Source: Candidatus Levyibacteriota bacterium | Lineage (GTDB): Bacteria; Patescibacteriota; Microgenomatia; Levybacterales; UBA12049 | NCBI GenBank assembly: GCA_016182185.1 | Contig: JACOXU010000001.1 | Coordinates: 207,251 to 271,250 of the forward strand | Reading direction: 5' to 3' | Length of the DNA: 64,000 bases | Shown here: positions 11,167 to 44,030 of the stretch, piece by piece | Position numbering within the stretch: position 1 is the stretch's first letter | How the letters are laid out: each line of letters opens with the position of its first letter | Program-made: the position numbers and the translations under genes | Notes under the pieces: generated by a model | Told to the model about the DNA's origin: nothing | What the model saw: the letters and a program-made list of their open reading frames with translations, nothing else | Databases searched by the model: none

Positions 11167-12093
11167 CTATTCATCACTTGAAAACTTAAGCATTTTTCTT
11201 TCGGAAACTTTATCTGAGCTATGAAGAAAAAGATCAGCCAAGAATCCGGTGAAAAATATCTGAATTCCGCTTATAACCAAAAGGATTCCGAGAAAAAGCA
11301 GTGGTCTATTTCCAATTGTATAACCTTCAATACGAAGAACTGTAAGATAGAGAAGAACTATAGTTCCTGCTATAAATAGGAGTCCGCCAACAGGGGCAAA
11401 GAAATGAAGAGGTCTTTTAGCATATTTTGAAAGAAAAAGCATGGTAAACATATCAGGAATTTCAGTAAATACTTTGGAAAATCCATATTTTGATTTACCG
11501 AACTTTCTTTTTTCATGAGTAACCGGAATTTCTGTTACTCTAAAACCATCCTCGTGGAGAAAAAGCGGGATAAAACGATGTCTTCCTCCATATAAATTTA
11601 AGGATTTAGCAGCATCACTTGTATAAAGTTTTAAACCACAATTGTAATCATGCAGCTTTGTTCCCCAAAAGACAGATGCAATCAGATTAAAAAATTTTGA
11701 TGAAATAACCTTTACGATAGAATCCTTACGATTTTTTCTCCAGCCAGAAACAGCATCCCAGCCCTCTTCTTGTTTTTTGATTAATTTTGAAATCTCACTT
11801 GGTTTGTCCTGAAGATCAGCATCAAGTGTAGCTATCAATTCTCCTCTTGCTTTTTGAAATCCAAAGGTTAAGGCTTCTGCTTTCCCCCGATTTCGCCTAA
11901 ATGAAAATATATGAACGCTTTTTTCTTTACTATGAAATTCTTTTAATATTGTAAGGCTATTATCACTTGACCCATCATCAACAAAAATTACCTCATAATC
12001 CACTTTTAGCTTTTTAAATTCTGCTGTAAGCTCTTTAAAAAATGGATTTAAGCTCTCTTCTTCGTTAAAAACAGGCACAATTACGCTTAGCAT
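11167..12093 (-). CDS. GT2 polyprenyl-phosphate sugar transferase (DPM1/GtrB/ArnC-like) with C-terminal TM helices
   Basis: MLSVIVPVFNEEESL...VIFVDDGSSDNS...DADLQD, plus two C-terminal TM helices typical of GtrB/ArnC. Confidence 0.8.
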   Translation of the reverse strand: MLSVIVPVFNEEESLNPFFKELTAEFKKLKVDYEVIFVDDGSSDNSLTILKEFHSKEKSVHIFSFRRNRGKAEALTFGFQKARGELIATLDADLQDKPSEISKLIKKQEEGWDAVSGWRKNRKDSIVKVISSKFFNLIASVFWGTKLHDYNCGLKLYTSDAAKSLNLYGGRHRFIPLFLHEDGFRVTEIPVTHEKRKFGKSKYGFSKVFTEIPDMFTMLFLSKYAKRPLHFFAPVGGLLFIAGTIVLLYLTVLRIEGYTIGNRPLLFLGILLVISGIQIFFTGFLADLFLHSSDKVSERKMLKFSSDE

Positions 12094-12102: not shown

Positions 12103-14166
12103 TTACCATTTTTTACTTATGTAGCCAAAAATAAGAAGACCTAGAACCAAAGAAACACTAATTAAACTTATCACAACTCCCCTATTGACCCAGTCTTGGG
12201 GGGTATAGTAGATCTCAAGCGTATAATCCCCGCCCTTGGGAAGAGTAAAGCTATTGAATAAATTACTATATTTATGGCTTTTTATACTAATCTCATTATT
12301 TCTTGCCACCCAATATTTATCAAAACTTTCAGAAAAAACAAGAACGTCGTTTTTCTGTGCATTTTTCACTGAAAGTTTATATTTCGTTGGATTAATAGAT
12401 TGAAAACTAATTTCTAAATTTTCCGACGGACTCCAAAAATGACCTCTTGGATCTAAGATTTCAAAAACTGTAATCTTCCCAAATCCCTTAACTTCCTTTA
12501 GCCAATTAATTTTTCTCACGTCTTCTATCGTTTTCAGATATAACGAATCAAAATATTTTCTGTCTTTTAAGAAAATCTCGTGTTGTGAATCAAAGGGGAC
12601 AATTACATATTTAACAGAAAGGTTTTGAAGCTCTACTTGTGATTTTTTATCATTCAGATATTTAACGACATCATAAGGATTATATTTATTTATAAATTCC
12701 TGGCCTGAAATTGAAGGATGAATATCTGATCGAAATCCAAATCTTTCATGTGTAGGGATCCAAAAAGTTCTGTAAAAAACTTTTTCTTTTGATAAGAAAT
12801 TTGCAAGTTTTACATATTCCTGAGGTAAACTTTGTTGCCTGAATGTTCCAGTCAACTCTCCAAAAAATGCAGGGCGGATTAAATACAATAGATATAAAGT
12901 TATAAATAACAAAAAAAAATTCTTTACATTTAGGATCTTGCCTTTGGTGGTTATTTGAAATTTGAAGTTAGAAATTTGAAATTTTAGCTGAGATTCCAGC
13001 AACTTATATAATTTCCAAATGCTAAATGGGATTAGTATTGAATATGAGAGAACAACTAGAAAATACCATTTAGTCGGATCTCTAAACATTACAAATCCCG
13101 GGATATGTTCAAAAAGCCATAAATATATTCCGCCAAATGGGTCATTTGCCCCTTTTGCCAAAAAGGAACCAATTAAGCCCAGGAATATAAAAAAAATTAT
13201 ATATTTTTTTTCATCTTGAGCTAATTTTTTGACAAAAAATAAACTTAAGTATGCAAGAATCGGTATTAGTAAAAACTCTGATTTCATAAAATAAACTTTA
13301 CCAAAAATATTTTCCGGCCAATATGGATGAAGCATTGATATTGTCTGTTCAAATTTTGCAAAACTAAGATATGGAACTATTTCCACCGATGAATAAGCCG
13401 GTCCAAGTTGTTGTATGGGATTTTGCTTAGTAACCAAAAGGGGAATAAGCCAAAAAGCATGAACCAAAAAAGCAATTACACCAGGAGGAACAAAAATAAC
13501 TATAAATTTCTTTATTAAGTCTATGCTATTCCTATTTGCGAGCTGAACAACTATGAAGTAAATCAATACAGAAACAATTGTCGCGTAAAATGCTCTAGGA
13601 TCAAATATTAATTGTAGGGCAATAATTAAACCGGTCAGTATTGATTTCTTAAGATCAAAGTGTTCTTCTTCAATAAGTTTTATGAAAATCCCCAAAACTA
13701 AAGGGGCGATTGCGTAGGCGATTGCAATTGCCATTTGCCCTCCCCCCACAATCATTAAAAGATATGTGTTAAAGATAAATACAAAAGGAGATAAAAAGGA
13801 AAGTTTATTCTTAGGCATCGTTATCTTAAACAAATACCAGGAGGATAAAAATGAAATCAGAATAAATGGCCAAAACCAAATTAATCTTTCTATAAATATC
13901 CATGGAAGATTAAAGTATCTGAATAACACAATCGTTGTGGTTGAAAAATAGGTATGAAGACCTAAAATAAAATTAATATTTATACCCGTATTGCTTAATA
14001 GATAACTCCATACATAGGGGAAGATGGTAAGGCTTTCTATTTGATTTTCAAATCTGAAATTCCAATCACCTGAGGAAATAACATCAAAAGAAAGCCAAGT
14101 TTTAAAAACGGCCAGAACGAGAAAAAAAATGAACAAATATGCAAGCTTTGTAATTATATTTTTCAA
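12103..14166 (-). CDS. large polytopic membrane protein, putative GT-C glycosyltransferase (687 aa) with an extracytoplasmic C-terminal domain
   Basis: At least 12 TM helices, an early-loop ISSGDW motif, a soluble roughly 250-aa C-terminal domain and a terminal TM anchor. It contains heptamer repeats at 12954-12987. Confidence 0.45.
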   Translation of the reverse strand: MKNIITKLAYLFIFFLVLAVFKTWLSFDVISSGDWNFRFENQIESLTIFPYVWSYLLSNTGININFILGLHTYFSTTTIVLFRYFNLPWIFIERLIWFWPFILISFLSSWYLFKITMPKNKLSFLSPFVFIFNTYLLMIVGGGQMAIAIAYAIAPLVLGIFIKLIEEEHFDLKKSILTGLIIALQLIFDPRAFYATIVSVLIYFIVVQLANRNSIDLIKKFIVIFVPPGVIAFLVHAFWLIPLLVTKQNPIQQLGPAYSSVEIVPYLSFAKFEQTISMLHPYWPENIFGKVYFMKSEFLLIPILAYLSLFFVKKLAQDEKKYIIFFIFLGLIGSFLAKGANDPFGGIYLWLFEHIPGFVMFRDPTKWYFLVVLSYSILIPFSIWKLYKLLESQLKFQISNFKFQITTKGKILNVKNFFLLFITLYLLYLIRPAFFGELTGTFRQQSLPQEYVKLANFLSKEKVFYRTFWIPTHERFGFRSDIHPSISGQEFINKYNPYDVVKYLNDKKSQVELQNLSVKYVIVPFDSQHEIFLKDRKYFDSLYLKTIEDVRKINWLKEVKGFGKITVFEILDPRGHFWSPSENLEISFQSINPTKYKLSVKNAQKNDVLVFSESFDKYWVARNNEISIKSHKYSNLFNSFTLPKGGDYTLEIYYTPQDWVNRGVVISLISVSLVLGLLIFGYISKKW
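12954..12987. repeat. imperfect heptanucleotide repeat (TTTGAAA-like)x4.7 inside the coding sequence of 12103..14166
   Basis: tttgaaa tttgaag ttagaaa tttgaaa ttttag, encoding KFQISNFKFQI. Confidence 0.7.
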
Positions 14167-14172: not shown

Positions 14173-15384
14173 CTACTTGTTGGTTTTAATAAATTCTTCA
14201 ATCGCATCAATCATATAATCGAGCATCTCTTTTGTCTGAGAAGAATGCACGCCGAGCAGGAATGAATCTCGATGAACCTTATCCGCTGTTTCTAGTCCGC
14301 CTACCAAAATGACAGGTAAGGATTTGAATCCTGATTGACGAAGAATATTTCCGGCGAAGAAAAGACGGGTTCTAATCTTATTTTTTTCTAAAAATTCTAC
14401 CAGATCTTTCCTACTAAAAGGAACTTTATCTCTCAAAGTTAAGGGAAAATTGAACCATGATGGATTAGCCTGTGGCAAAGTTTCAACAAAATGAAAGTAA
14501 TCTCCCAACTTATTTAATTTTGTCATAAGATATTTAAAATTTTTTCTTCTATCCCTGTGGAAATTTTCTAGCCTGTCCATTTGAACCAAGCCAAATGCTG
14601 CCATAATTTCAGGTACTTTAAAATTATAGCCTATTTCAGAATATGAATACCTATGGTCATAAGGAACTCCATTGCTTATGCTATCAAAATAAACACCATG
14701 ATCTTTGTCGTAACCTAATGTAATCTGTTCTTTTCCCCATTCCCTAAGGCTTTTAACCCGATAGGCAGACTTTTCATTTTTTGAAAGAACTATTCCTCCT
14801 GCACCTGCAAGTGTCATGTGATGGCTGGCATAGAAAGAGCATGTGGAAAAATTGCCAAACGAACCTGTTTTTCTACCATAAATTTCACTTCCTAAACCAT
14901 CACAGTTATCTTCAATAACCTGAAGCTTATACTTAGATGCAAGATGCATAATTCTTTTCATATCAACCGGATTACCAAGGGTGTGAGCAAAAATTATTGC
15001 TTTTATATCTTTATGTTTCTTAACCGCCTGTTCAACTCTATCAAGATCGATGTTTAAACTTTTAAGATCAACATCAACGGCAACAACCTGAAGATGGGAG
15101 TGCCATATAGGAGAAAGAGTCGAAGGAAATCCAGCTGCGCAGGTCAAAACCTTACTCCCCTCGGGAAGATTTAGCACACGTATAGCCAGAAGGTTTGCGG
15201 ATGAACCTGAGTTTACCAGACTTGCATAGGGCATTCCGATATATTTTGCAAAACGTTTTTCGAAACGCTCTGTCAGTCGTCCAGTACCAAGCCATCCGTA
15301 TTTTAGGCAATCCACGACTGCGTTTATCTCTTTCCCATCATAAACTGCTTTTGCAAAAAATATCTGATCTTTTCTTTTCTTCAC
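14173..15384 (-). CDS. DegT/DnrJ/EryC1/StrS-family PLP/PMP enzyme, E1-like sugar 3-dehydrase (RfbH/DdhC-type); GTG start
   Basis: VNSGSSANLLA is the DegT signature. The active-site segment reads SFYASHHMTLAGAGG, with His where aminotransferases have the PLP lysine; this is the hallmark of 3-dehydrases (E1, ColD). AGGA sits 7 nt before the GTG. Confidence 0.6.
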   Translation of the reverse strand: MKKRKDQIFFAKAVYDGKEINAVVDCLKYGWLGTGRLTERFEKRFAKYIGMPYASLVNSGSSANLLAIRVLNLPEGSKVLTCAAGFPSTLSPIWHSHLQVVAVDVDLKSLNIDLDRVEQAVKKHKDIKAIIFAHTLGNPVDMKRIMHLASKYKLQVIEDNCDGLGSEIYGRKTGSFGNFSTCSFYASHHMTLAGAGGIVLSKNEKSAYRVKSLREWGKEQITLGYDKDHGVYFDSISNGVPYDHRYSYSEIGYNFKVPEIMAAFGLVQMDRLENFHRDRRKNFKYLMTKLNKLGDYFHFVETLPQANPSWFNFPLTLRDKVPFSRKDLVEFLEKNKIRTRLFFAGNILRQSGFKSLPVILVGGLETADKVHRDSFLLGVHSSQTKEMLDYMIDAIEEFIKTNK

Positions 15385-15456
15385 AAGATTTTCCTAAAAG
15401 TTTTTATTTTGGAGTATATCATAGTGAAATTTCAATAGTAAAGAAGAATTTTCAAG

Positions 15457-16470
15457 TCAATGTTGCTTAACATTTTTCTTTACCCACAAATAAAGTTTTT
15501 CCAGCCCTTCATAAACACCTGTTTTTGGTTCCCATCCAAAATCTTTTTTTGCTTTACGAATGTCCGAGATATAAATACGCTGATCTCCCGGACGCCAGTC
15601 CGAAAAACTAACGTTTATCCTTCTTTTCATCAATTTTTCAAGCATTGGCTTGAATTCAATCCAAACGGAAATTGATTTATCTGTTCCTCCGCCGATGTTG
15701 TATATCTGCCCTTTCGTTTTACTTATGTTCTTTATTGCAAGCTCAAATGCCCTGATGAGATCTTGAATAAATAAAACATCTCTTACTTGTTTGCCGTCAC
15801 CGTAAATTGTGAACTTTTGTCCTAATGTAAGTGCAATAATAAACCACGCCAGCCAGCCCTGATCTTCGACTCCATATTGGTGCGGTCCGTAAATACAGGA
15901 TTGCCTAAAAACTATGGTTTTTAATCCATAGATTCTCGCATAATCCCGAACATATTGATCCGCAGCTCCCTTACTGCACCCATAGGGAGAATGAAAGTCT
16001 AAATTTCTCTCCTCTGAAATACCGTTTGGAAAATCCTCAAGTACGTACCTTGTTCTTTTTTCTCCAATCCTAAGATCTTCAAGTCCGCCGTAAACTTTAT
16101 TGGTTGAACTATACAAAATAATAGGTTTACTTTTGGATAAGCGGATTGACTCAAGGACATTTAATGTTGCAAGCGTGTTATTTTCAAAATCATCGCGTGG
16201 GTTTTCAACAGAGGTCGTAACTGCGACCTGACCTGCAAAGTGAAAAACAACATCACTGCCTTCTACCGCCTTTTTAAGAGAGGTGAAATCTCTTACATCT
16301 TTTTCCGCAACCCTTACCTTTGGGAAATTCTTTGATAAAAACACAAGATTTTTCTCAACATTTTTTCTTGAAAGATTATCATATATCGTCACTGAATCTT
16401 CTTTCTTTAAAAAATGTATAGCCGTATTTATACCGATGAAACCCGCTCCTCCCGTGATTAAAATTTTCAT
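15457..16470 (-). CDS. NAD-dependent SDR epimerase, CDP-paratose/tyvelose 2-epimerase-like
   Basis: GGAGFIG, DNLSRK, HFAGQVAVTTS, YSSTNKVYG, DFHSPYGCSKGAADQY and GDGKQVRDVL match my memory of tyvelose epimerase (RfbE). Not database-verified. Confidence 0.5.
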   Translation of the reverse strand: MKILITGGAGFIGINTAIHFLKKEDSVTIYDNLSRKNVEKNLVFLSKNFPKVRVAEKDVRDFTSLKKAVEGSDVVFHFAGQVAVTTSVENPRDDFENNTLATLNVLESIRLSKSKPIILYSSTNKVYGGLEDLRIGEKRTRYVLEDFPNGISEERNLDFHSPYGCSKGAADQYVRDYARIYGLKTIVFRQSCIYGPHQYGVEDQGWLAWFIIALTLGQKFTIYGDGKQVRDVLFIQDLIRAFELAIKNISKTKGQIYNIGGGTDKSISVWIEFKPMLEKLMKRRINVSFSDWRPGDQRIYISDIRKAKKDFGWEPKTGVYEGLEKLYLWVKKNVKQH

Positions 16471-16514: not shown

Positions 16515-18179
16515 TTATAATTTTTTTTGAATTTCCCTAGTTATATCATAAATCTCATTTTTTTCAGAATTATAGCGAAATGCTGTAATATTTTCCTTTT
16601 TAAATTTTTCGTTTGCGATCTCTTCTTTTAGCTTAGTAAGATCGGTAAAGAAGCCGAATCCCTGGCCATTTTTTTCAAAATACCCCTGGTTTCCTAGCTT
16701 CCAGAAAAAATTATCAAGCAAAAAGGGATTTAACCTATCTGTATTATTTTTGTATGCATAGACAACTAAAAGTGTGTATCCAATTCCATTTTGAAATGGC
16801 AAGGGATTATTTGGGACAATAAAACTATGATCACTTTCTATATAAATTACCTCCCTCTGTGCAATAATTGGATGCTTCACTAATATTTCAGAAAGAATAT
16901 GTCTTTGAATTGCTCCCCTTTCTTTAAGAAAACTTATCTGATCTTGAATAAAACCAGCATTCATAATTAAATAGAATCCTATCAAAAAAAGGGTTACGGA
17001 GTAAATTGGTAGTGAAAGTTTTATATTATTGGTTATTCTTTTTAATCCTCCAAAGAAGCCTTGAAAGCCCATGCCGATTATTAAGACTAAGGGAGCCGCA
17101 GGGAGATAATAATATCTCGACTCTAAATACCCATTTGGCTTTATTAACACGATAAAAGGAATAAAGGCTAATAAATAGAAGGGGAAAGAAAAAATTATCG
17201 GCCATTTCTCTTTGCGCGAAAATAAAAAAAATAATATTGGTAGAATAAACAACGAAGCAGCCAAAACTGAAATAAACTCTACGATTATCTGTTCTGATAT
17301 GATTCCTGCATACCCTGTAGGCTCAAAATAGGGGAAAATAATTTCCGTAACCTTTCTTGATAAAGGAAAAATGATTTCTCCGGGAATGATTATCTGCGAC
17401 AATGATTCGAAAGGATAGGTTATTGCAGCCCAAACCAATCTCAGTAAACCACCAGATACTTCGCTACCTATATATCTAGTATTACTAGTAACGGTGAAAA
17501 AAAGACTTAAGAATTTTAAAACAAATATTAGGATCCCCAAAAATAAAAAAAAGAACGAAAATCGGGAAACTTTTACCTTATTTTTTTTGCTGATAAAATA
17601 AACAAATTCGACGAATGGAAAAAGCAAAAACAAAAAAAGGGCGTTTTCCTTAAAACCTAGTGAAATAGATAGAGTTATAACTGATCCAATTAGATAGAAT
17701 GTTTTCTTTGAATGTAAAAAATTCAAAAAAAAGAGTATCGATAATAAAATAAAACTTACTGCCGGAAGTGTCCCCGTGGATGCTCCAAACCATAATACTG
17801 CTTGCTTGCTTGTCGCATTGAATATGAAAAACAGCACAACTAAAGCTGAAAAAAAATGATTTCTGATAAAACGGTAGGCAATTTTATAAAGCAGGTAGGA
17901 ATTTATTGTGTGAAAAAAAGTCGAAAATAAAAATAAGGGGATAATATTGAGGGGAAATTGTCCAAAAAGCACCAAGTTTGTCAATCTGGCTAATGGCCTG
18001 TTCTCCAACAATAATAATCCTGTGAGAGATGGACCTGAAAAAATATATGAGATCCCTTCAGCTCTCAGCGTTCCCAGCGTATGCCATTCATCTTGTTGAT
18101 AAAAAGTTTGTATTAAATCTCTGTATAAAAATAGAATTATAGCAAAGAAAAAAATGATTATAAAAACGTCTCTTTTCAT
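16515..18179 (-). CDS. polytopic membrane protein, putative GT-C glycosyltransferase (554 aa)
   Basis: At least 12 TM helices. The first loop has FYQQDEWHTLG (a DE motif). It is a paralog of the C-terminal half of 3799..6945 and of 37808..40387. Confidence 0.45.
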   Translation of the reverse strand: MKRDVFIIIFFFAIILFLYRDLIQTFYQQDEWHTLGTLRAEGISYIFSGPSLTGLLLLENRPLARLTNLVLFGQFPLNIIPLFLFSTFFHTINSYLLYKIAYRFIRNHFFSALVVLFFIFNATSKQAVLWFGASTGTLPAVSFILLSILFFLNFLHSKKTFYLIGSVITLSISLGFKENALFLFLLFPFVEFVYFISKKNKVKVSRFSFFFLFLGILIFVLKFLSLFFTVTSNTRYIGSEVSGGLLRLVWAAITYPFESLSQIIIPGEIIFPLSRKVTEIIFPYFEPTGYAGIISEQIIVEFISVLAASLFILPILFFLFSRKEKWPIIFSFPFYLLAFIPFIVLIKPNGYLESRYYYLPAAPLVLIIGMGFQGFFGGLKRITNNIKLSLPIYSVTLFLIGFYLIMNAGFIQDQISFLKERGAIQRHILSEILVKHPIIAQREVIYIESDHSFIVPNNPLPFQNGIGYTLLVVYAYKNNTDRLNPFLLDNFFWKLGNQGYFEKNGQGFGFFTDLTKLKEEIANEKFKKENITAFRYNSEKNEIYDITREIQKKL

Positions 18180-18928
18180 TTTTTTTCTAAATAAATTATA
18201 AGATTTGAGGAAAAATATGGTATCAAAGAAAAAATGTAGTCAAGCAAATCATACACTTGTTGTAGTCCAGGAGGAAATTCATACTTAATAGTTGCTCCAC
18301 GCAATGCCAGTAATTTGAAATTATAAATTTTGGCCATATCTTTTATCGCCAATGCTGTAAAAATTCTTATATGACCGACGGGCTGTGTATTATGGAGAAT
18401 TTTTTTTAATACACCCAAACCTACACTTCTGTCTTTTGTGCTCATCTCGCAGAAAGTCGGAACAATTCCCACAACACAAAGTAATCGTTGATACCAAGCG
18501 AGAAGATTTGGTGTTGTGATAACGACCCTGCCTCCTTTTTTTAACACTCGGTTAAACTCTTCGAAATACCTATCCGTATCTAGAATATGTTCAAGAACTT
18601 CTTGCGAAACAATAAAATCAAAGTAATTGTTTGGGTAAGGAATTTTTTTATTAAGATCTGCCACTTTTGTTTCGACGCAATATTTTTTAGCCAATCTACA
18701 TCCCTCTCTTGAAATATCTACTCCATATAATTTCACCGTAGAAAAACGCGCTGCGATTTCTTTTGCCAGGCCACCATCCCCACAGCCAGCGTCTAAAATA
18801 TTTCCTTTGAATTTGAGGTTTAATTTATTAATAAGCAAAGATAATCGTAGTGGATAATAATGGTCTTTTCTCCATTGAATCATTTTTTTTTCGTAACGAG
18901 TTGTCTGGTAGTATTGATCTATTTTCAT
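18176..18928 (-). CDS. class I SAM-dependent methyltransferase
   Basis: Motif I ILDAGCGDGGLAKEIAARF and the post-I acidic residue (YGVDIS). Confidence 0.75.
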   Translation of the reverse strand: MKIDQYYQTTRYEKKMIQWRKDHYYPLRLSLLINKLNLKFKGNILDAGCGDGGLAKEIAARFSTVKLYGVDISREGCRLAKKYCVETKVADLNKKIPYPNNYFDFIVSQEVLEHILDTDRYFEEFNRVLKKGGRVVITTPNLLAWYQRLLCVVGIVPTFCEMSTKDRSVGLGVLKKILHNTQPVGHIRIFTALAIKDMAKIYNFKLLALRGATIKYEFPPGLQQVYDLLDYIFSLIPYFSSNLIIYLEKK

Positions 18929-19866
18929 CTTATCTTTAATTTATATAAAAAAAATATTGCAACGTATACAACTATGGTAAGAAAAGAAACTATTGGGTGC
19001 CAAAACCAGATCGGATTCTTACTCTTATTATACATTTTTATTGCCTCAATTAAGGGAGCGACAATTGAAAGATTATAAAGTACTGCCAAAAAAAAGTCTA
19101 TCTTCGAAGTTTTATCTACCCATGTTTCCTGACCTCTGTTCTTTCTTGCCATAAATTTTTTGCCAATTTTAATTCTTTTTTTGACATAGCCCCCTAGAGA
19201 AGAAACGTAATGATGATAGATGCCGATATTCTTAGGCACTGCATAGCGAACGAGCCCCCCGCTTACAAGTTTTGACACAAAATTAACTTCTTCAAATCTA
19301 TCGCCAAATCCTATTCTATCGATAAAATTTTTTCTATATAAAAATCCGTTTGCACCTATAACCGGTGCTTCTCCTATCTTAAGTTCATAGATTAGATAAT
19401 CTTTCTTTTCAATTATATTTGCTCTTGGATGAAGTTTTCTCGCTAATGGATCGGCAATCCTCAGAAGAGCAAAATATTGATTAAGAGAAGAGTCGTTTTT
19501 CCGAACTAGCCACGGTGACTCTACGCCAAAAACTCTTCTGTCTTCTTTTAACGGTTTTAGCATCTGCGTCAGCCATATTTTTTCAACCAACTCGTTATCA
19601 GCATCGATAAGCGCAATTATTTCTCCTTTTGCATTTTTTATACCTATCGCTTTTCCTCTTTCAGCATCACGAAGTTGGTTCTTAAGAATCTTAGTTCCCC
19701 ATTTTTTGGCAACCTTGATGGTATTATCAGTACTCCCCCCATCTATAACTAGAATTTCATACTTATTTTTTGGATAATCCTGTTTTCTAATACTCTTAAG
19801 ACACCTATCTAAAAACTTCTGTGCATTGTATGTTGGAATGATAATTGAAACAAAATATTTTCTCAC
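18925..19866 (-). CDS. GT2-family glycosyltransferase with C-terminal TM helices
   Basis: VSIIIPTYNAQKFL...ILVIDGGSTDNT...IDADN. Confidence 0.8.
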   Translation of the reverse strand: MRKYFVSIIIPTYNAQKFLDRCLKSIRKQDYPKNKYEILVIDGGSTDNTIKVAKKWGTKILKNQLRDAERGKAIGIKNAKGEIIALIDADNELVEKIWLTQMLKPLKEDRRVFGVESPWLVRKNDSSLNQYFALLRIADPLARKLHPRANIIEKKDYLIYELKIGEAPVIGANGFLYRKNFIDRIGFGDRFEEVNFVSKLVSGGLVRYAVPKNIGIYHHYVSSLGGYVKKRIKIGKKFMARKNRGQETWVDKTSKIDFFLAVLYNLSIVAPLIEAIKMYNKSKNPIWFWHPIVSFLTIVVYVAIFFLYKLKIR

Positions 19867-20895: not shown

Positions 20896-21756
20896 CTAAG
20901 GTAAGGTAGCTAAATATCTTATCAATGCAGTTCTCCATGGAGGCAAAACAACACCCAAAGATTTTGCGCTTGTATTCTTAAGAGAGGACACTACGGGAAT
21001 TCTTATACCTTTAAAAACTCCTTTTCTGTCTACAGGAACAATTTCTAAATTAAGCCTTCTTAATTTAACAATTTCCTGTGCAATTTTTACCCAAGAGCAA
21101 TAACCGGTGTTTACCAAATGATAAATTCCTGAACTTGCTTTTTTTTCCAATAATTCTAGTACTCCGCTTGCCAAGTCTTCTGCGTACGCTACGCTTACAA
21201 TTTGCTCCGATGAGATCTCCAAAGTTTTTTTGTTTTTCGCCTCATTTAATATATACAGTATGAAATTTCCTTTTTTAGCTCTACTTCCTCTCTGTCCTCC
21301 AAAAACTCCGCATGTTCTTATTATAATCGTATCCGAATTATAATTAATTGAAGCGATTTCTCCTGCAAATTTTGATAGTCCATAAATTTGCAAAGGGTTT
21401 GGTATATCTTTTTCAACATACGGACCCTCCTTGTCCCCATCGAAAACCCAACTCGTACTAAAATGAACAAATTTTATTTTTTTTTGACTGCATAAATCTC
21501 CTATGTTTCTTACAGCCAAGGTATTAATATTAAAGGCTTTTTGAGGATACCTCTCGCAATTTAATACTACATGATATGCGGCAGTATTAATAACAATTTC
21601 CGGTCTGACTCTATCGATCTTTTTTTTTAGTCTATCAAAATTAGTAATATCTAATTCTTGTTTACTAAAAGCGTGTATTTCATGTCCGTAAATATTAGAA
21701 ATGCGTTCAATTTGGGCGCCTATCTGACCATTTTTACCTAAAAGCAATATTCTCAT
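20896..21756 (-). CDS. RmlD-family (dTDP-4-dehydrorhamnose reductase-like) nucleotide-sugar 4-reductase
   Basis: MRILLLGKNGQIGAQI...INTAAY...NINTLAVRNI...YGLSKFAGE (YxxxK) follows RmlD/RfbD. Its substrate may be a CDP-sugar, given its neighbours. Confidence 0.65.
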   Translation of the reverse strand: MRILLLGKNGQIGAQIERISNIYGHEIHAFSKQELDITNFDRLKKKIDRVRPEIVINTAAYHVVLNCERYPQKAFNINTLAVRNIGDLCSQKKIKFVHFSTSWVFDGDKEGPYVEKDIPNPLQIYGLSKFAGEIASINYNSDTIIIRTCGVFGGQRGSRAKKGNFILYILNEAKNKKTLEISSEQIVSVAYAEDLASGVLELLEKKASSGIYHLVNTGYCSWVKIAQEIVKLRRLNLEIVPVDRKGVFKGIRIPVVSSLKNTSAKSLGVVLPPWRTALIRYLATLP

Positions 21757-21762: not shown

Positions 21763-22212
21763 TCATTTCATGACAATATCCCAGGAATATGGGACTTTTT
21801 GACTTAATGGATCTATTCTAATTATCTCTTTCTCATTGTATGGATGCGTAGAGCAATTAATAAGTACTGCTGGTTTTACGCCGATCGTTTTATAACCATT
21901 AATTACTCCCGGGGGAATTTGTACTAGGCAGTAATTATCTTCTCCAACAAATATTTCCTGAAGTCTCTTGTATGTTTTTGAATTCTTCCTATCATCAAAT
22001 AGGACCAGCTTAATCATTCCCTCCGCAACACAATAGTTTAGTGTCATTTTTTTGTGTTTATGCCAGCCTTTAATAATTCCCGGATAGCTTTTGGAAAAAT
22101 AGACTTCTCCAAAACGCTCGAACTCCCTATCGTCCTCTCTTAACATATGCATAATTGTGCCTCTTTCATCTGGGATTTTACTCAATTTTTTAATGTGGAC
22201 TCCGTCTATCAT
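21763..22212 (-). CDS. RmlC-like cupin sugar 3,5-(or 5-)epimerase
   Basis: DERGTIMHM..., KGWHKHKK (compare RGLHFQ) and a LNYCVAEGMIKLVLFDDR core; about 150 aa. Confidence 0.5.
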   Translation of the reverse strand: MIDGVHIKKLSKIPDERGTIMHMLREDDREFERFGEVYFSKSYPGIIKGWHKHKKMTLNYCVAEGMIKLVLFDDRKNSKTYKRLQEIFVGEDNYCLVQIPPGVINGYKTIGVKPAVLINCSTHPYNEKEIIRIDPLSQKVPYSWDIVMK

Positions 22213-23240
22213 ATCCAGTAAAGTTTTTTGTTTATTTTACGACTATCCAGTAAATATTTCAATTTTTTCATTCTGAAATAATCCGCGCTCTTAAGTTCCG
22301 CCGCAGTCAATTTGGTTTCCTTAAAAAATTTTATCAACTCACTAATACTCTTTTGCAAGTTCATCTTGAATCTGAATTTTGGAAATTTTGTGTTAAACTT
22401 GTAAAAATTCATTTTATAACTTCTTCTATCTCTGCTCTTCTTGTCGCCGAAAACTATTTTACATTCAGGCAATTGTCCATGTATCTCTTGAGCGATATTA
22501 ATAATTAAATAGTTTTGGCTATTTTCTCCTACCAGAAATACTTGATTGTGCACAAGCAACCTCTGACTCTCTATCATTAGCATAAAAACGCGGGATAAAT
22601 CTTTTACATGAATTACAGGACGCCAAGCTCTTCCATCGGATAGAAGAATTATCTTACGGTTAGCTATAGCACAGGCCACAAGATTATTAACCACAAGATC
22701 CAATCTTATGTTGGGAGAATAACCATGAACTGTCGGGTTACGCAGAATAATAGGAGAAAAATTTTCATTAGACAATTCCAGCAATGCTTTTTCTGTCTGA
22801 ACTTTGGTTTTTGCGTAACTGGTCAAAGGGTTGACTGAATCCTCCTCTGTTACCGAAGCTTTAAATTTATTTCCATAAACACTACAAGAAGAGGAAAATA
22901 TAAATCTCTTAACTCCTGTCTGCTTACTTAATTCTGCTAGTCGAACTGAAGCCGAAAAGTTTATTTCGCGAGTTAAGGCAGAATTTAGCTCAGCCATCGG
23001 ATCATTGGACAGAGCTGCTAGATGAACAACAGAGTCAACTCCTTCTAAATCCCTTTTCTCCAGTTTTCGAATATCTTTTTTGAGTCTTGGGTAGGAAAAC
23101 TTTTTCTTATTACTCACAAAATAGTCGGTGTCGCAACCGACAACAGAATATTTTTTGTGAACGAGCATAGGAACCAATACTGCTCCGATATAACCTTGAT
23201 CGCCGGTAACCAAAATTTTTTTCATAACTTTCTCTACCAA
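22209..23240 (-). CDS. NAD-dependent epimerase/dehydratase (SDR); candidate CDP-sugar dehydratase or reductase
   Basis: VTGDQGYIGAVL (GxxGxxG), SSSCSVYG, YAKTK (YxxxK). It lacks the GHTGFKG N-terminus of canonical CDP-glucose 4,6-dehydratase, so the exact reaction is unresolved. Confidence 0.6.
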   Translation of the reverse strand: MVEKVMKKILVTGDQGYIGAVLVPMLVHKKYSVVGCDTDYFVSNKKKFSYPRLKKDIRKLEKRDLEGVDSVVHLAALSNDPMAELNSALTREINFSASVRLAELSKQTGVKRFIFSSSCSVYGNKFKASVTEEDSVNPLTSYAKTKVQTEKALLELSNENFSPIILRNPTVHGYSPNIRLDLVVNNLVACAIANRKIILLSDGRAWRPVIHVKDLSRVFMLMIESQRLLVHNQVFLVGENSQNYLIINIAQEIHGQLPECKIVFGDKKSRDRRSYKMNFYKFNTKFPKFRFKMNLQKSISELIKFFKETKLTAAELKSADYFRMKKLKYLLDSRKINKKLYWI

Positions 23241-24025
23241 ATTTTCCAGACAGGATTATCCACCCATTGTTTGTTCAGCTCTTCTAAATCTTGATAAGTA
23301 TCTACAGCCGACCAATAACCGTTGTGGGCATAAACAGCCAATTGTCTTATCTTAACTAAACGCTCGAGTGCAATTTCTATTGTTTCTTCTGGTTTCACGT
23401 ATTTTAAAAAGGACTTTTTAAAAACCATAAAACCCCCATTAACATATTGATTAAGAAGAGGCTTTTGTACAAAATTTTTGATGATGCCATCCTTATCCGC
23501 TATCACTAAACCCCACTTTGATTTAGGATGTACACCTGTAATAGCGCCAACTGTTTTTTTTGATTTAAAATAAGATAACAATTTAAGTATGTTTATATTA
23601 CCTATACCATCTCCATAGGTTGCCATAAAAATGTCTGACTTGATATATTTTTTAACGCGGAGCAAACGTTCTCCAGTTAGGGTTTCAAGTCCTGTATTAA
23701 CAAAAGTAATTTTAAAATTTTCATGCTTTTCGACACTTCTTCGATAAATTATTTTCCTACCCGTTTTTACTTTAATAGTAAAATCATGAATAAGATACTC
23801 TTCATTTAGAAAGTAGCTTTTAATATAGTCTCCCTTATAGCCTAAAGCGATAATAAAATTATTAAATCCGTAATGAGAATAAATTTTCATGATATGCCAA
23901 AGAATCGGTTTCTCTCCGACAAGCACCATTGGTTTTGGACGAAATTCTGTTTCTTCTTTCATTCTAGTCCCTTGTCCGCCACAAAAAATAACAATAGGAA
24001 TATTCATGATTAACGAGTATAGCAT
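23234..24025 (-). CDS. rfbF: glucose-1-phosphate cytidylyltransferase
   Basis: IVIFCGGQGTRM...RPKPMVLVGEKPILWHIMKIYSHYGFNNFIIALGYKGDYIKSYF...GGFMVF...W.AVDT and a C-terminal PVWKIW match RfbF/DdhA closely. It is the first gene of the leftward operon. Confidence 0.8.
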   Translation of the reverse strand: MLYSLIMNIPIVIFCGGQGTRMKEETEFRPKPMVLVGEKPILWHIMKIYSHYGFNNFIIALGYKGDYIKSYFLNEEYLIHDFTIKVKTGRKIIYRRSVEKHENFKITFVNTGLETLTGERLLRVKKYIKSDIFMATYGDGIGNINILKLLSYFKSKKTVGAITGVHPKSKWGLVIADKDGIIKNFVQKPLLNQYVNGGFMVFKKSFLKYVKPEETIEIALERLVKIRQLAVYAHNGYWSAVDTYQDLEELNKQWVDNPVWKIW

Positions 24026-24075: not shown

Positions 24076-25290
24076 ATGATTAGCAGTCCAAAAAAAATAA
24101 GAATCCCATATGCTTTGGCTGTATATGATGAGAAAGAAAAAAAACGAATTATAAAAGTTTTAGACGAACACAGAACCAATCTTGGGAGTGAAACTATTTC
24201 GTTTGAGAAAAGTGTGGCAAGACTTTTTGGTAAAAAATTTGGGGTAATGGTAAATTCCGGATCTTCGGCAAATTATCTCGCAGTTGAGTTACTTCAGCTT
24301 CCTCCCGGATCAGAAGTGATCACTCCTCTTTTGACTTTCTCAACAACGGTTGCACCACTTATTCAGCACCGCCTTATTCCAGTTTTTGCAGACGTTGAAC
24401 CAGGTAAATATACGATTGACATAAATCAAATCGAAAAACTCATCTCAAAAAAAACAAAAGCTTTAATGATTCCGCTACTTTTAGGTAATGTGCCAGACAT
24501 GCATGAACTCGCAGGTCTTGCCAAAAAATACAAACTACGATTTATTGAGGACTCATGTGATACATTGGGTGCAAGGTTTAACAAAAAACCTACCGGAAGT
24601 TTTTCCGATATTTCTACTACTAGCTTTTTTGGGTCACATATTATAACTACCGGAGGGAATGGAGGCATGATCTTGATGAATAAATCTAAATGGAAAGACA
24701 GAGCGAAAGTTTTAAGAGGTTGGGGAAGAAGTTCTTCCCTTTTTAGTGAGTCAGAGCAAATTTCAAAACGTTTCAAAACAAAGATAGGTGATATTCCATA
24801 TGATGCTAAATTTATATTTGAAGAGATTGGATATAATTTCCTTCCTTCGGAAATTGGCTCCGCCTTTGGTAACGAGCAGCTTAAAAAACTTCCGACATTC
24901 AGAAGAAAAAGGAGAATACATTTTGCAAGATTACGGAAATTTTTTAAAAAGTATGAAGAATTTTTTATCCTTCCCATACAAAACCCCTCTGCGGAAACTC
25001 AATGGCTCGCTTTCCCGCTGACGATTAGGAAAGAGTCTCCTTTTTCCAGAATGGAAATTACTACATATCTTGAAAAAAATAATGTTCAAACTCGTCCAAT
25101 TTTTACGGGGAGCGTTCTTAGGCAACCTGGCTTTAGAAACATAGTTCATCGCTCTGTTAATAATGGGGCTCCAGTGACTCGCGAAGTTATGGAACGAGGT
25201 TTTCTAATAGGTTGTCATCATGGACTTGAAGAAAAACATATAGAAAAGCTGAAGGAACTTTTCAGGAGATTTTTAAAACGGTACGCTTAA
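24076..25290 (+). CDS. DegT-family PLP/PMP enzyme, second E1-like sugar 3-dehydrase paralog
   Basis: VNSGSSANYLA; the active-site segment SFFGSHIITTGGNGG has His in place of Lys, as in 14173..15384. Confidence 0.6.
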   Translation: MISSPKKIRIPYALAVYDEKEKKRIIKVLDEHRTNLGSETISFEKSVARLFGKKFGVMVNSGSSANYLAVELLQLPPGSEVITPLLTFSTTVAPLIQHRLIPVFADVEPGKYTIDINQIEKLISKKTKALMIPLLLGNVPDMHELAGLAKKYKLRFIEDSCDTLGARFNKKPTGSFSDISTTSFFGSHIITTGGNGGMILMNKSKWKDRAKVLRGWGRSSSLFSESEQISKRFKTKIGDIPYDAKFIFEEIGYNFLPSEIGSAFGNEQLKKLPTFRRKRRIHFARLRKFFKKYEEFFILPIQNPSAETQWLAFPLTIRKESPFSRMEITTYLEKNNVQTRPIFTGSVLRQPGFRNIVHRSVNNGAPVTREVMERGFLIGCHHGLEEKHIEKLKELFRRFLKRYA

Positions 25291-44026: not shown

Positions 44027-44030
44027 AAAT

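What the first reader, a model, noticed from the sequence alone, without database searches (positions are those of the whole stretch)
14173..16470. Second E1-like 3-dehydrase paralog paired with a tyvelose-epimerase-like SDR
14173..15384 is a second DegT-family protein with the Lys-to-His active site (SFYASHHMTLAGAGG). It sits directly beside an SDR whose motifs (DNLSRK, HFAGQVAVTTS, YSSTNKVYG, DFHSPYGCSKGAADQY, GDGKQVRDVL) resemble CDP-paratose 2-epimerase. This suggests a second dideoxyhexose branch (paratose or tyvelose type) in the same locus. Two E1 paralogs about 9 kb apart is unusual.
Basis: partly seen in the sequence, partly recalled or inferred. Interest (0 to 1): 0.5.

Follow-up and report, generated by a model that had tools for sequence, protein, structure and literature searches.

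The report
Iron-sulfur-less E1-like sugar dehydratase pair
In a Candidatus Levybacteria genome, a sugar 3-deoxygenating enzyme that looks like the classic E1 dehydrase but has lost E1's iron-sulfur site sits next to a tyvelose-epimerase-like enzyme, inside a block of genes that probably builds an unusual deoxy sugar for the cell surface; it is an uncharacterised variant of known chemistry, not a new kind of system.

Summary
14173..15384(-) encodes a 403-aa DegT-fold protein with His in place of the catalytic Lys. 15457..16470(-) encodes a 337-aa SDR that clearly belongs with CDP-tyvelose 2-epimerases.

The interpretation needs three corrections.
1. Neither E1-like paralog is a canonical E1. 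Both lack three of the four [2Fe-2S] cysteines, and the window has no E3-type reductase. They fall in a large cysteine-less branch of the E1/RfbH lineage, separate from ColD, and most likely turn over ColD-style without a reductase.
2. The SDR keeps every TyvE catalytic residue but lies in an uncharacterised sister clade (45-49% identity). 79 of 80 genomic loci with its homologs have no 3-dehydratase nearby. The usual neighbour of the dehydratase clade is a 4,6-dehydratase-type SDR.
3. The pair is adjacent only in four close Levy-/Roizmanbacteria relatives. There it sits in a fixed block: GT2, methyltransferase, GT-C, SDR, dehydratase, GT-C, ArnC-like GT2.

A 3,6-dideoxyhexose (tyvelose-like) branch delivered through a polyprenyl-phosphate carrier is the best reading, but it is unproven. 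The two paralogs are ancient (37% identity), and the other one lies in a variable insertion. Verdict: new variant of a known kind, modest interest.

The parts
14173..15384 (-). ORF A: His-type DegT-fold protein of the E1/RfbH lineage without the [2Fe-2S] cysteines; predicted reductase-independent NDP-4-keto-6-deoxyhexose 3-dehydratase
   Evidence: PF01041 at 269.9 bits. NCBIfam RfbH at 407.1 bits, below the cutoff of 423. E1 3bcx 313.8 bits against ColD 145. H220, D194, Y217 and F345 equivalents are kept; C251/C253/C261 are absent. The clade gets 200/200 bootstrap support. Homologs sit next to 4,6-dehydratase-type SDRs.
15457..16470 (-). ORF B: TyvE-like extended SDR; predicted NDP-hexose C2-epimerase
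   Evidence: 9rl0 TaTyvE 347.9 bits and 1orr 299.5 bits; the next family scores 129. T-N-K, YxxxK, DQGW and KQVRD are conserved. Identity is 48.8% and 45.2% to the two TyvEs, which are 65.7% identical to each other.
16515..18179 (-). Polytopic membrane protein, GT-C (PMT_2-like) glycosyltransferase candidate, directly upstream of B
   Evidence: No Pfam hit of its own. hhalign of its family against PMT_2 proteins gives probability 96.9%, E 1.8e-10. Position is conserved in L009, L010 and L092.
12103..14166 (-). Polytopic membrane protein with a beta-rich C-terminal domain, GT-C-fold candidate, directly downstream of A
   Evidence: No Pfam or NCBIfam family. AF2 model has pLDDT 76.6. The top 8 Foldseek PDB hits are all GT-C enzymes (AftD, STT3, AglB, PglB, AftA) at E 3.5e-6 to 2.9e-4 and TM 0.30-0.36; the next hit is at E 0.05.
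11167..12093 (-). GT2 of the ArnC/GtrB/PgfS type; candidate polyprenyl-phosphate glycosyltransferase
   Evidence: The best NCBIfam hits are ArnC (180.1 bits) and PgfS (134.3), both below their cutoffs. It is 63% identical to the gene at the same position in L009 and L092.
18176..18928 (-). SAM-dependent methyltransferase of the conserved block
   Evidence: NCBIfam methyltransferase hits. 39-80% identical to the gene at the same position in L009 and L092.
18925..19866 (-). GT2 glycosyltransferase of the conserved block
   Evidence: NCBIfam GT2 hits. 68-82% identical to the gene at the same position in L009 and L092.
20896..21756 (-). RmlD-family NDP-4-ketohexose reductase; candidate 4-ketoreductase
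   Evidence: TIGR01214 at 234.6 bits, above the cutoff of 224. L009, L010 and L092 carry a different RmlD-family SDR (32% identity) at the edge of the block.
21763..24025 (-). Operon of glucose-1-phosphate cytidylyltransferase-like NT (23234..24025), SDR343 (22209..23240) and RmlC-like epimerase (21763..22212); candidate supply and L-sugar branch
   Evidence: TIGR02623 at 236.2 bits, below the cutoff of 300. SDR343 is generic, with best PDB hit 6vo6 at 101 bits. RmlC-like domain matches PF00908. The same cassette lies next to an A-type gene in L006 and L011.
24076..25290 (+). Paralog C: second His-type, cysteine-less E1-lineage DegT protein
   Evidence: 37% identical to A. RfbH 345.3 bits. E1 231 bits and ColD 173. 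No Fe-S cysteines. A close cluster representative, P0326, is fused to a canonical 4,6-dehydratase with STDEIYG.
46238..47221 (-). SDR327: the only 4,6-dehydratase-type SDR in the window (motif STEEIYG); candidate supplier of the 4-keto-6-deoxy substrate
   Evidence: Its best NCBIfam and PDB hits are dTDP-glucose 4,6-dehydratases. Its 49-52% homologs sit directly beside A homologs in L005 and L006; L011 has a 304-aa SDR in the same position, which was not compared.

Best explanation
ORF A is an NDP-4-keto-6-deoxyhexose 3-dehydratase of the E1/RfbH lineage that has lost the [2Fe-2S] cluster.

Proposed mechanism for A, all steps inferred:
1. PMP forms a Schiff base with the C4 keto group.
2. The conserved His (A His188, equivalent to E1 His220) abstracts the C4' proton and the C3 hydroxyl leaves.
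3. With no cluster and no E3 partner, the 3,4-ene intermediate cannot be reduced by electron transfer. It is presumably hydrolysed as in ColD, giving the 3,6-dideoxy-4-keto sugar plus ammonia.
4. PLP is recharged to PMP by an amino-acid donor.

ORF B is a TyvE-type extended SDR. It inverts C2 of an NDP-hexose through a transient 2-keto intermediate on tightly bound NAD+ (inferred from conserved residues).

Proposed pathway in this Levybacteria lineage (inferred):
- A cytidylyltransferase-like enzyme supplies the NDP-glucose.
- A 4,6-dehydratase-type SDR encoded elsewhere in the island (46238..47221) makes the 4-keto-6-deoxy substrate.
- A removes the 3-OH.
- An RmlD-family reductase reduces C4.
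- B epimerises C2, giving a 3,6-dideoxyhexose of the paratose/tyvelose kind.
- The flanking ArnC-like GT2 loads the sugar onto polyprenyl phosphate.
- The two flanking GT-C-like membrane proteins transfer it to a surface acceptor.

What is shown: family placement, loss of the cysteines, absence of E3, conserved gene order, and GT-C homology or fold of the flanking proteins.
For: A belongs to the E1 lineage:
- 313.8 bits to E1 against 145 to ColD. RfbH is the best NCBIfam model.
- In 200 NJ bootstraps, A groups with E1 to the exclusion of ColD in 192.
- The His220, D194, Y217 and F345 equivalents are kept.

Fe-S loss:
- Canonical RfbH homologs keep C193/C251/C253/C261. A, all 28 members of its clade and paralog C lack the last three.
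- In the alignment of 124 of the 150 best 50%-identity representatives plus references, 83 sequences are His+Cys type and about 61 are His without Cys.
- A sits in an all-cysteine-less group with 193/200 support.
- No FNR/ferredoxin-like ORF or Cys motif occurs in the 64 kb.

Dehydratase role from context:
- A homologs lie beside 4,6-dehydratase-type SDRs. L001 has STDEVYG; L005 and L006 have S[ST]EE.YG; L011 has a 304-aa SDR in the same position, which was not aligned.
- In L006 and L011 they also lie beside an NT/RmlC/RmlD cassette.
- A C-type relative is fused to a canonical 4,6-dehydratase and another to RmlC.

Precedent: the ColD mechanism is described in the review PMC8987622. A PLP/L-Glu C3-dehydratase works without a reductase in C. 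jejuni (PMC10680097).

B:
- 347.9 and 299.5 bits to TyvE structures against 129 for the next family.
- The T-N-K segment, Tyr/Lys, Gln205 and Arg237 equivalents are conserved; the Arg299 equivalent can be read from the alignment. The roles of these residues are described in PMC13098431.

Coupling of A and B, and use of the product:
- The block GT2-MT-GT-C-B-A-GT-C-GT2 is colinear in the window, L009, L010 and L092, with 81% (B) and 84-87% (A) identity.
- B homologs also lie near ColD-type His dehydratases in L094 and L025.
- The flanking proteins are GT-C-like, and the GT2 is ArnC-like.
Against: - No enzymology exists for any member of the cysteine-less E1-lineage clade, as far as I could find.
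- ColD-style turnover is inferred only from what is missing.
- B's clade is usually unlinked to dehydratases. 79 of 80 genome loci, mostly Chloroflexota, have none within 10 kb. CPR loci L014, L015 and L017 have only an ArnC-like GT2 next to it.
- TaTyvE, the closest characterised relative, is inactive on a 3-deoxy substrate (PMC7851689).
- The only 4,6-dehydratase-type SDR in the window is 30 kb away.
- The RmlD gene in the window belongs to the neighbouring NT-SDR343-RmlC operon. The RmlD-family gene in L009 and L010 is only about 32% identical to it, so the reductase assignment is weak.
- The nucleotide carrier is not established. The cytidylyltransferase match is below its cutoff, and L001 uses an RmlB-like dehydratase.
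- TM-scores for the GT-C assignment of 12103..14166 are low (0.30-0.36).
Confidence: 0.5

Rival explanations
1. A and B are neighbours but not partners. B is a TaTyvE-like NDP-glucose/NDP-mannose (or 6-deoxy) C2-epimerase that feeds the adjacent polyprenyl-phosphate GT2 and GT-C enzymes. A separately makes a 3,6-dideoxy sugar together with the 4,6-dehydratase, RmlC and RmlD enzymes of the island.
For: - 79 of 80 loci with B homologs have no 3-dehydratase nearby.
- In CPR loci L014, L015, L017 and L094 an ArnC-like GT2 sits directly upstream of B.
- TaTyvE converts CDP-Glc to CDP-Man and rejects a 3-deoxy substrate (PMC7851689).
- A homologs occur without B in L001, L005, L006 and L011.
- None of the ten fusion proteins examined joins a His-type DegT to a TyvE-like SDR.
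Against: - B-A adjacency with a 72-nt spacer is kept in four genomes whose surrounding genes vary.
- B homologs lie near non-orthologous ColD-type dehydratases in L094 and L025. That pattern suggests a functional link rather than chance.
Confidence: 0.3
2. A works as a 4-aminotransferase, or a mixed dehydratase/aminotransferase, rather than a net 3-dehydratase. It would make an NDP-4-amino-4,6-dideoxyhexose, as SpnQ does when no reductase is supplied.
For: - SpnQ without a reductase shows aminotransferase activity with PLP and glutamate (review PMC8987622).
- A has no cluster and no reductase partner.
- A is a DegT-fold protein.
Against: - The catalytic Lys is replaced by His in every member of the clade.
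- According to the same review, wild-type E1 and ColD show no transferase activity under these conditions.
- The island already encodes a Lys-type DegT aminotransferase, 42920..44026.
- Contexts with RmlC/RmlD and 4,6-dehydratases fit deoxygenation.
Confidence: 0.1
3. A is a canonical E1 (DdhC/RfbH/AscC) that works with an E3-type reductase encoded elsewhere.
For: - Its best database matches are E1 and RfbH.
- The His220, D194, Y217 and F345 equivalents are kept.
Against: - Three of the four cluster ligands (C251, C253, C261) are absent in A and in its whole clade, while they are conserved in 83 canonical relatives.
- The one retained Cys (the C193 equivalent) is also present in ColD, which has no cluster.
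- The score is below the RfbH curated cutoff.
- There is no E3-like ORF in 64 kb.
Confidence: 0.05

Closest known systems
E1 (CDP-6-deoxy-L-threo-D-glycero-4-hexulose 3-dehydrase; AscC/DdhC/RfbH; PDB 3BCX)
   Same: - Fold is the DegT/fold-type-I PMP enzyme.
- His replaces the Schiff-base Lys.
- D194, Y217 and F345 equivalents are kept.
- It is the closest solved structure (313.8 bits, about 40% identity).
- It is in the same lineage in the tree (192/200 bootstraps exclude ColD).
- It probably carries out the same first half-reaction, C3-OH elimination from a 4-keto-6-deoxy NDP-hexose.
   Different: - A lacks C251/C253/C261 of the C-X57-C-X-C-X7-C [2Fe-2S] motif.
- A lacks about 32 N-terminal residues.
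- A scores below the NCBIfam cutoff.
- No E3 reductase is present, so E1's defining one-electron reduction cannot occur.
ColD (GDP-4-keto-6-deoxy-D-mannose 3-dehydratase; PDB 2GMS/3GR9)
   Same: - It is a His-type PMP enzyme without an Fe-S cluster or reductase partner.
- It is the only known mechanism that fits A's anatomy: hydrolysis of the ene-amine, with PMP regenerated from glutamate.
   Different: - Sequence relation is distant (145 bits, 27% identity).
- It forms a separate basal clade.
- True ColD-type genes exist in related CPR loci (L005, L094, L025) and are distinct from the A type.
- A's context points to a glucose-derived, probably CDP-linked, substrate rather than GDP-mannose.
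CDP-tyvelose 2-epimerase (TyvE/RfbE; PDB 1ORR from S. Typhi, 9RL0 from T. atlanticus)
   Same: - It is an extended SDR with GxxGxxG.
- It shares the catalytic Thr-Asn-Lys segment, Tyr/Lys, and the Gln205 and Arg237/Arg299 equivalents.
- It is by far B's best structural-family match.
   Different: - B is 45-49% identical to both, while they are 66% identical to each other, so B is in a sister clade.
- The VAM segment reads VAV in B.
- Members of B's clade are mostly found among glycosyltransferases with no ddh/rfb genes.
- The substrate is unknown.
Arn pathway module (ArnA/ArnB/ArnC/ArnT: SDR, DegT enzyme, polyprenyl-phosphate GT2, GT-C transferase)
   Same: The gene inventory of the block matches: an SDR, a DegT-fold enzyme, an ArnC-like GT2 and GT-C-like membrane proteins. 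This suggests the sugar is delivered through a lipid carrier to an extracytoplasmic acceptor.
   Different: - The DegT enzyme here is a His-type dehydratase, not a Lys-type aminotransferase.
- The SDR is a TyvE-like epimerase, not a decarboxylase.
- There is no formyltransferase or deformylase in this window.
- The resemblance is architectural only.

Membership tests
E1 / RfbH / DdhC (NCBIfam NF011936) | DegT (fold-type I, PMP/PLP) domain | tested here: met
   PF01041 at 269.9 bits over residues 17-395.
E1 / RfbH / DdhC (NCBIfam NF011936) | His in place of the Schiff-base Lys (E1 His220), plus E1-type D194, Y217 and F345 | tested here: met
   The alignment to 3bcx shows SFYASHH against SFYPAHH, EDNCD against EDCCD, and SWFNFP against SWFGFP.
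E1 / RfbH / DdhC (NCBIfam NF011936) | [2Fe-2S] motif C193-X57-C251-X-C253-X7-C261 | tested here: not met
   Only the C193 equivalent is present. The loop reads EWGKEQITLGYDKDHGVYFD. The same holds for all 28 clade members and for paralog C, while canonical homologs keep all four Cys.
E1 / RfbH / DdhC (NCBIfam NF011936) | Score at or above the curated family cutoff | tested here: not met
   A scores 407.1 bits and paralog C 345.3, against a cutoff of 423.
E1 / RfbH / DdhC (NCBIfam NF011936) | Partner E3 (AscD/DdhD) flavin/[2Fe-2S] reductase in the locus | tested here: not met
   No such ORF was found among the ORFs of 120-140 aa or longer that were listed or among those scanned against family libraries. 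No ferredoxin-type Cys motif was found in any ORF of 80 aa or more. The rest of the genome was not examined.
ColD-type 3-dehydratase | His-type active site with no Fe-S ligands | tested here: met
ColD-type 3-dehydratase | Sequence membership in the ColD clade | tested here: not met
   ColD scores 145 bits against 314 for E1. The ColD clade is outside the A+E1 group in 192 of 200 bootstraps. Genuine ColD-like genes in L005, L094 and L025 are only 29-31% identical to A.
ColD-type 3-dehydratase | Glutamate-dependent PMP regeneration and hydrolytic product release | not testable with these tools
   Needs enzymology.
CDP-tyvelose 2-epimerase (TyvE) family of extended SDRs | NAD-binding GxxGxxG, catalytic Thr124/Tyr164/Lys168, and the TNK segment | tested here: met
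   B has GGAGFIG, SSTNKVYG and SPYGCSK. The roles of these residues are described in PMC13098431.
CDP-tyvelose 2-epimerase (TyvE) family of extended SDRs | Substrate-pocket residues Gln205, Arg237, Arg299 and the VAM segment | tested here: met
   DQGW and KQVRD are conserved. WRPGDQ, holding the Arg299 equivalent, can be read from the alignment. VAM is VAV in B, a conservative change.
CDP-tyvelose 2-epimerase (TyvE) family of extended SDRs | Closest relationship to characterised TyvEs rather than to other SDR families | tested here: met
   347.9 and 299.5 bits against 129 or less for dTDP-glucose dehydratases and GalE.
CDP-tyvelose 2-epimerase (TyvE) family of extended SDRs | Membership in the characterised TyvE clade, with activity on CDP-paratose | tested here: inconclusive
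   B is 48.8% and 45.2% identical to Ta and St TyvE, which are 65.7% identical to each other, so it is in a sister clade. Activity is not testable here.
CDP-tyvelose 2-epimerase (TyvE) family of extended SDRs | Genomic linkage to a complete ddhA-D/prt-type 3,6-dideoxyhexose pathway | tested here: inconclusive
   The window holds a cytidylyltransferase-like NT, a 4,6-dehydratase-type SDR, 3-dehydratases and an RmlD-type reductase, but they are dispersed over 35 kb. There is no E3 and no recognisable paratose synthase.

The most novel reading that the evidence does not exclude
The cysteine-less branch of the E1/RfbH lineage, to which both paralogs belong, would be a third, uncharacterised class of sugar 3-dehydratases. 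It accounts for roughly 40% of the sequences compared among A's nearest 50%-identity cluster representatives. Under this reading the class descends from E1 but needs no reductase, so it records how Fe-S/E3 dependence was lost (or gained) between E1 and ColD. In CPR bacteria it would be wired, together with a TyvE-like epimerase, into a polyprenyl-phosphate/GT-C route that places a 3,6-dideoxyhexose on the cell surface. CPR phages would also carry the same enzyme.
Probability: 0.3. Interest if true: 0.5.

Novelty: new variant of a known kind. Interest (0 to 1): 0.35.

Why it matters
C3 deoxygenation of sugars is a textbook case of two solutions. E1 with E3 uses PMP, an iron-sulfur cluster and radical chemistry. 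ColD uses PMP/PLP only.

A robust, abundant branch of the E1 lineage without the cluster ligands would be a natural experiment on how one mechanism turned into the other. It would also give a simpler, oxygen-tolerant, reductase-free enzyme for making CDP-3,6-dideoxyhexoses. The Nidetzky group reported that it was unable to prepare these sugars enzymatically (PMC13098431).

For CPR biology, the block suggests that these tiny-genome bacteria, and some of their phages, invest in rare dideoxy sugars delivered by lipid carriers.

For annotation, the locus shows three ways current labels mislead:
- 'RfbH' or 'E1' labels on cysteine-less proteins imply an E3 dependence that cannot exist.
- PGAP's 'GDP-mannose 4,6-dehydratase' name for B is wrong.
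- 'CDP-paratose 2-epimerase' for B's clade is unverified.

Tried and rejected
- Canonical E1/E3 reading: rejected on the missing cysteines and the absent E3.
- 'Aminotransferase despite the His': rejected. E1 scores 314 bits against 135 or less for aminotransferases.
- 'Generic UDP-sugar epimerase' for B: rejected.
- B as a CDP-glucose 4,6-dehydratase, and PGAP's name 'GDP-mannose 4,6-dehydratase': rejected. B has the epimerase-type T-N-K, not an acid/base pair such as the T-D-E seen in the L001 dehydratase-type SDR. The T-D-K motif of CDP-glucose 4,6-dehydratases is from my own knowledge.
- An alternative Fe-S site built from the A-clade-specific Cys26/Cys82 plus Cys161: not supported. Cys161 is also conserved in cluster-free ColD, and only three Cys would be available. 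I could not measure distances, so this remains an open footnote.
- Recent duplication of the two paralogs: rejected. They are 37% identical and fall in different subclades.
- Promoter and terminator scans: uninformative, with counts at shuffle level.
- Pfam and NCBIfam on the two flanking membrane proteins: no result. Profile-profile comparison and a structure search were needed instead. hhalign of the 687-aa family against PMT_2 proteins was negative.
- Literature searches for a characterised cysteine-less RfbH-like enzyme or CPR dideoxyhexose pathways: nothing found.
- One context look-up returned no DNA, and one contig ended right after the B homolog (L093).


Full report
**1. Observation**

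The window has about 33% G+C and is almost entirely a glycan-biosynthesis island, with genes mostly on the minus strand. The proteins match an NCBI MAG of Candidatus Levybacteria (CPR/Patescibacteria) at 100% identity (P0001 and P0121).

- ORF A is 14173..15384(-), 403 aa. It starts at GTG with an AGGA 8 nt upstream.
- ORF B is 15457..16470(-), 337 aa.
- The other His-type DegT protein, paralog C, is 24076..25290(+). It is 8.7 kb away and 37% identical to A.

**2. What A is**

A is a DegT-fold protein (PF01041, 269.9 bits).
- Its best NCBIfam model is RfbH: 407.1 bits against a curated cutoff of 423. The next model scores 188 bits.
- Its best solved relative is the E1 dehydrase 3bcx at 313.8 bits. 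ColD scores 145 and aminotransferases 135 or less.
- The His in SFYASHH aligns with E1 His220. The E1-specific D194, Y217 and F345 are also kept.

E1's defining [2Fe-2S] motif is gone. I reconstructed E1 residues 40-435 from the alignment and aligned it with 120 homologs. The canonical ~437-aa RfbH proteins keep C193, C251, C253 and C261. A and all 28 members of its clade (60% identity or more, about 402 aa, CPR) keep only the C193 equivalent. They replace the cysteine loop with EWGKEQ[VI]T.G[FY][DE].DHGV.FD. Paralog C also has no loop cysteines.

The retained Cys is not diagnostic, because ColD, which has no cluster, has it too.

No ORF in the 64 kb resembles an E3/FNR-type reductase, and no ORF of 80 aa or more has a ferredoxin-type Cys motif. 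So A belongs to the E1 lineage but cannot use the E1/E3 electron-transfer mechanism described in the review PMC8987622.

**3. How big and how distinct the cysteine-less group is**

An exhaustive HMMER search of 1.84 billion 50%-identity representatives gave 967 relatives at E of 1e-30 or better. I aligned 124 of the best 150 representatives with references (145 sequences). Of these, 83 are His-type with the cysteines and about 61 are His-type without them.

In a neighbour-joining tree rooted on the window's own Lys-type DegT (42920..44026):
- A and C both fall in a cysteine-less assemblage of about 39 representatives.
- Next come a few mixed lineages, then the main Fe-S clade of 67 that includes E1.
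- The ColD clade is basal.

Bootstrapping used 72 taxa, 392 columns and 200 replicates:

| Grouping | Support |
|---|---|
| A clade | 200/200 |
| A clade plus two other all-cysteine-less groups | 193/200 |
| A with E1, excluding ColD | 192/200 |
| A closer to C than to E1 | 139/200 |

These are distance trees, so the deeper branching is provisional.

I found no paper that characterises any member of this branch. This search covers only the held library.

**4. Evidence that A-type and C-type proteins are 3-dehydratases**

Gene context:
- In a Nomurabacteria contig (L001) the order is nucleotidyltransferase, RmlB-like SDR (STDEVYG), A homolog, short SDR.
- In L005 and L006 the A homolog lies directly after an SDR with S[ST]EE.YG. 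That SDR is 49-52% identical to the window's 46238..47221. L011 has a 304-aa SDR in the same position, but I did not compare it.
- In L006 and L011 the A homolog is followed by the same NT-SDR343-RmlC-RmlD cassette that lies beside paralog C in the window.

Natural fusions:
- A close C-type representative (P0326) is fused to a canonical 4,6-dehydratase (STDEIYG).
- Another (P0379) is fused to an RmlC-type epimerase.
- An A-side representative (P0284) is fused to an RmlD-like fragment.

These contexts are what one expects for an enzyme acting on NDP-4-keto-6-deoxyhexoses. With no cluster and no reductase, the only precedented way to complete turnover is ColD's: hydrolysis of the ene-amine and recharging of PMP from glutamate (PMC8987622). 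A PLP/L-Glu C3-dehydratase also works without a reductase in C. jejuni (PMC10680097). This mechanistic step is an inference.

**5. What B is**

B scores 347.9 bits to the T. atlanticus CDP-tyvelose 2-epimerase (9rl0) and 299.5 to the S. Typhi enzyme (1orr). The next SDR family scores 129.

B keeps GxxGxxG, the Thr-Asn-Lys segment, Tyr/Lys, and the Gln205 and Arg237 equivalents. The Arg299 equivalent can be read from the alignment. The roles of these residues come from PMC13098431. VAM reads VAV in B. An epimerase, not a 4,6-dehydratase, is therefore expected. PGAP's name 'GDP-mannose 4,6-dehydratase' is a generic Pfam-derived label.

Three cautions apply:
- B is only 48.8% and 45.2% identical to the two characterised TyvEs, which are 65.7% identical to each other. 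B therefore represents a sister clade. That clade is very large: thousands of hits at 60-68% identity in Patescibacteria, DPANN archaea and Chloroflexota.
- In 80 genome loci carrying B homologs (54-62% identity, mostly Anaerolineae), none has an A- or C-type gene, a cytidylyltransferase or an SDR343 within 10 kb. Only one (L025) has any 3-dehydratase-like gene. The usual neighbours are glycosyltransferases.
- TaTyvE interconverts CDP-Glc and CDP-Man, prefers 6-deoxy substrates and is inactive on a 3-deoxy substrate (PMC7851689).

**6. Is the A-B pairing meaningful?**

Adjacency is kept in the window, L009, L010 and L092. A is 84-87% identical and B about 81% identical across these. It is probably also kept on a 4-kb contig that carries P0006 and P0127.

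All four loci share a colinear core: GT2 (18925..19866), methyltransferase, membrane protein, B, A, membrane protein, ArnC-like GT2 (11167..12093). The region upstream of the core varies. In L009 the NT/SDR343/RmlC/paralog-C segment is absent, and a different RmlD-family SDR is present. So the A-B block is the conserved core, and paralog C's cassette is the variable insertion.

Beyond this lineage, B homologs lie 2-4 kb from non-orthologous ColD-type His dehydratases, paired with ColC-like SDRs, in a CPR MAG (L094) and a gammaproteobacterial MAG (L025). That recurrence is some evidence for a functional link. It is weighed against the many loci that show none.

**7. Surroundings and likely fate of the sugar**

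- The upstream membrane protein (16515..18179) has no Pfam hit. Its family aligns to PMT_2 proteins with hhalign probability 96.9%, E 1.8e-10.
- The downstream one (12103..14166) belongs to a CPR-wide 'hypothetical' family. A 40-sequence AlphaFold model has pLDDT 76.6 and pTM 0.65.
- The eight best PDB matches to that model are all GT-C enzymes (AftD, STT3, AglB, PglB, AftA), at E 3.5e-6 to 2.9e-4. TM-scores are low (0.30-0.36), and the next hit is at E 0.05.
- The GT2 at 11167..12093 is closest to ArnC and PgfS, which are polyprenyl-phosphate glycosyltransferases.

Together these suggest an Arn-like logic. An NDP-sugar is tailored in the cytoplasm by an SDR and a DegT-fold enzyme. It is loaded on polyprenyl phosphate, then transferred outside by GT-C enzymes. 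This is inferred from the gene inventory only.

**8. Best explanation and its limits**

A is a reductase-independent 3-dehydratase of the E1 lineage. I put about 0.8 on it being a 3-dehydratase and about 0.85 on it being Fe-S-independent. B is an NDP-hexose C2-epimerase (about 0.75). That they act in one pathway giving a paratose/tyvelose-type 3,6-dideoxyhexose is about even odds.

The remaining steps have weaker candidates:
- the 4,6-dehydratase step (46238..47221, 30 kb away);
- the 4-ketoreduction (an RmlD-family enzyme, not orthologous between relatives);
- the nucleotide carrier (cytidylyltransferase-like, 236 bits against a cutoff of 300).

The main rival is that B is an independent NDP-Glc/Man-type epimerase that feeds the lipid-carrier GT2.

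**9. Verdict**

The finding is real and the family assignments are right at the superfamily level. 'E1-like' must be qualified: there is no iron-sulfur site and no E3. 'Tyvelose epimerase' is a family resemblance, not a demonstrated function. Two His-type DegT genes in one CPR glycan island is not exceptional; L005 has two side by side.

What is mildly novel is the well-supported, abundant and uncharacterised cysteine-less branch of the E1 lineage, and its embedding in a GT-C/ArnC-like block. This is a new variant of a known kind, of modest interest.

Noticed in passing
L003:5242-10099 and L008 (contigs carrying A homologs P0017 and P0013): A homologs (68-71% identical to window A) lie on phage contigs. 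L003 has a major head protein (phrog_1357, E 1.2e-26) about 2 kb upstream and tail-like proteins downstream. The dehydratase gene sits between glycosyltransferase genes inside the structural region. Phages of CPR bacteria may carry this deoxysugar enzyme.
   Followed up: partly
window 22209..23240 (SDR343), with 23234..24025 and 21763..22212: The SDR translationally coupled to the cytidylyltransferase-like gene is not a 4,6-dehydratase type (motif SSSCSVYG). Its best solved relative is 6vo6 (101 bits), which I recall, from memory only, to be C. jejuni Cj1427, a C4-dehydrogenase. If SDR343 is a C4-dehydrogenase, paralog C could make a 3-deoxy sugar that keeps its 6-OH, as was done in vitro in PMC10680097.
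   Followed up: partly
L005:7413-10824; L094:13008-15168; L025:~14100-17100: Genuine ColD-type His dehydratases (FYVGHH, 34-36% identical to ColD), paired with GDP-fucose-synthase/ColC-like SDRs, occur in CPR and other MAG glycan loci. In L005 one sits directly beside an A-type gene, so two 3-dehydratase-like genes in one locus recurs.
   Followed up: partly
proteins P0326, P0277, P0309, P0379, P0284, P0245, P0252, P0258, P0280: Many RfbH-like His-type DegT domains occur as apparent fusions. Partners include a canonical 4,6-dehydratase, other extended SDRs, RmlD-like reductases, an RmlC-like epimerase and a GT2. I did not check whether any are gene-calling or assembly artefacts.
   Followed up: partly
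window 14173..15384, residues Cys26 and Cys82 of ORF A: Two cysteines are conserved specifically in the A clade: Cys26 in 26 of 28 members and Cys82 in 28 of 28. Cys82 is also kept in the neighbouring P0031 group. Canonical E1 and ColD have A/V/P/T at these positions. Their role is unknown, and I could not measure their distance to the active site.
   Followed up: partly
window 42920..47221: This looks like a separate sugar-tailoring cluster: a Lys-type DegT aminotransferase (LegC/PseC-like), a GDP-L-fucose-synthase-like SDR, a phosphoesterase-family protein (PF04185, 232 bits) and the 4,6-dehydratase-type SDR327. It probably represents a third deoxy/amino-sugar branch in the same island.
   Followed up: partly
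window 26751..27470: A PAPS-reductase/CysD-like PP-loop protein borders the glycan island. It is conserved at 88% identity in the same position in L009. Its role beside glycan genes is unexplained.
   Followed up: no
L092:3805-7186: The Roizmanbacteria-like relative has an insertion in the otherwise colinear block. It carries a Lys-type DegT aminotransferase, a GT2, a methyltransferase and a formyltransferase (PF00551). This suggests an N-formylated amino sugar and makes the Arn-like architecture more complete there.
   Followed up: no
L001:12420-15122: A 900-aa UDP-glucose/GDP-mannose dehydrogenase gene in the Nomurabacteria locus carries an intein (PF14890 hit in the precomputed annotation).
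   Followed up: no
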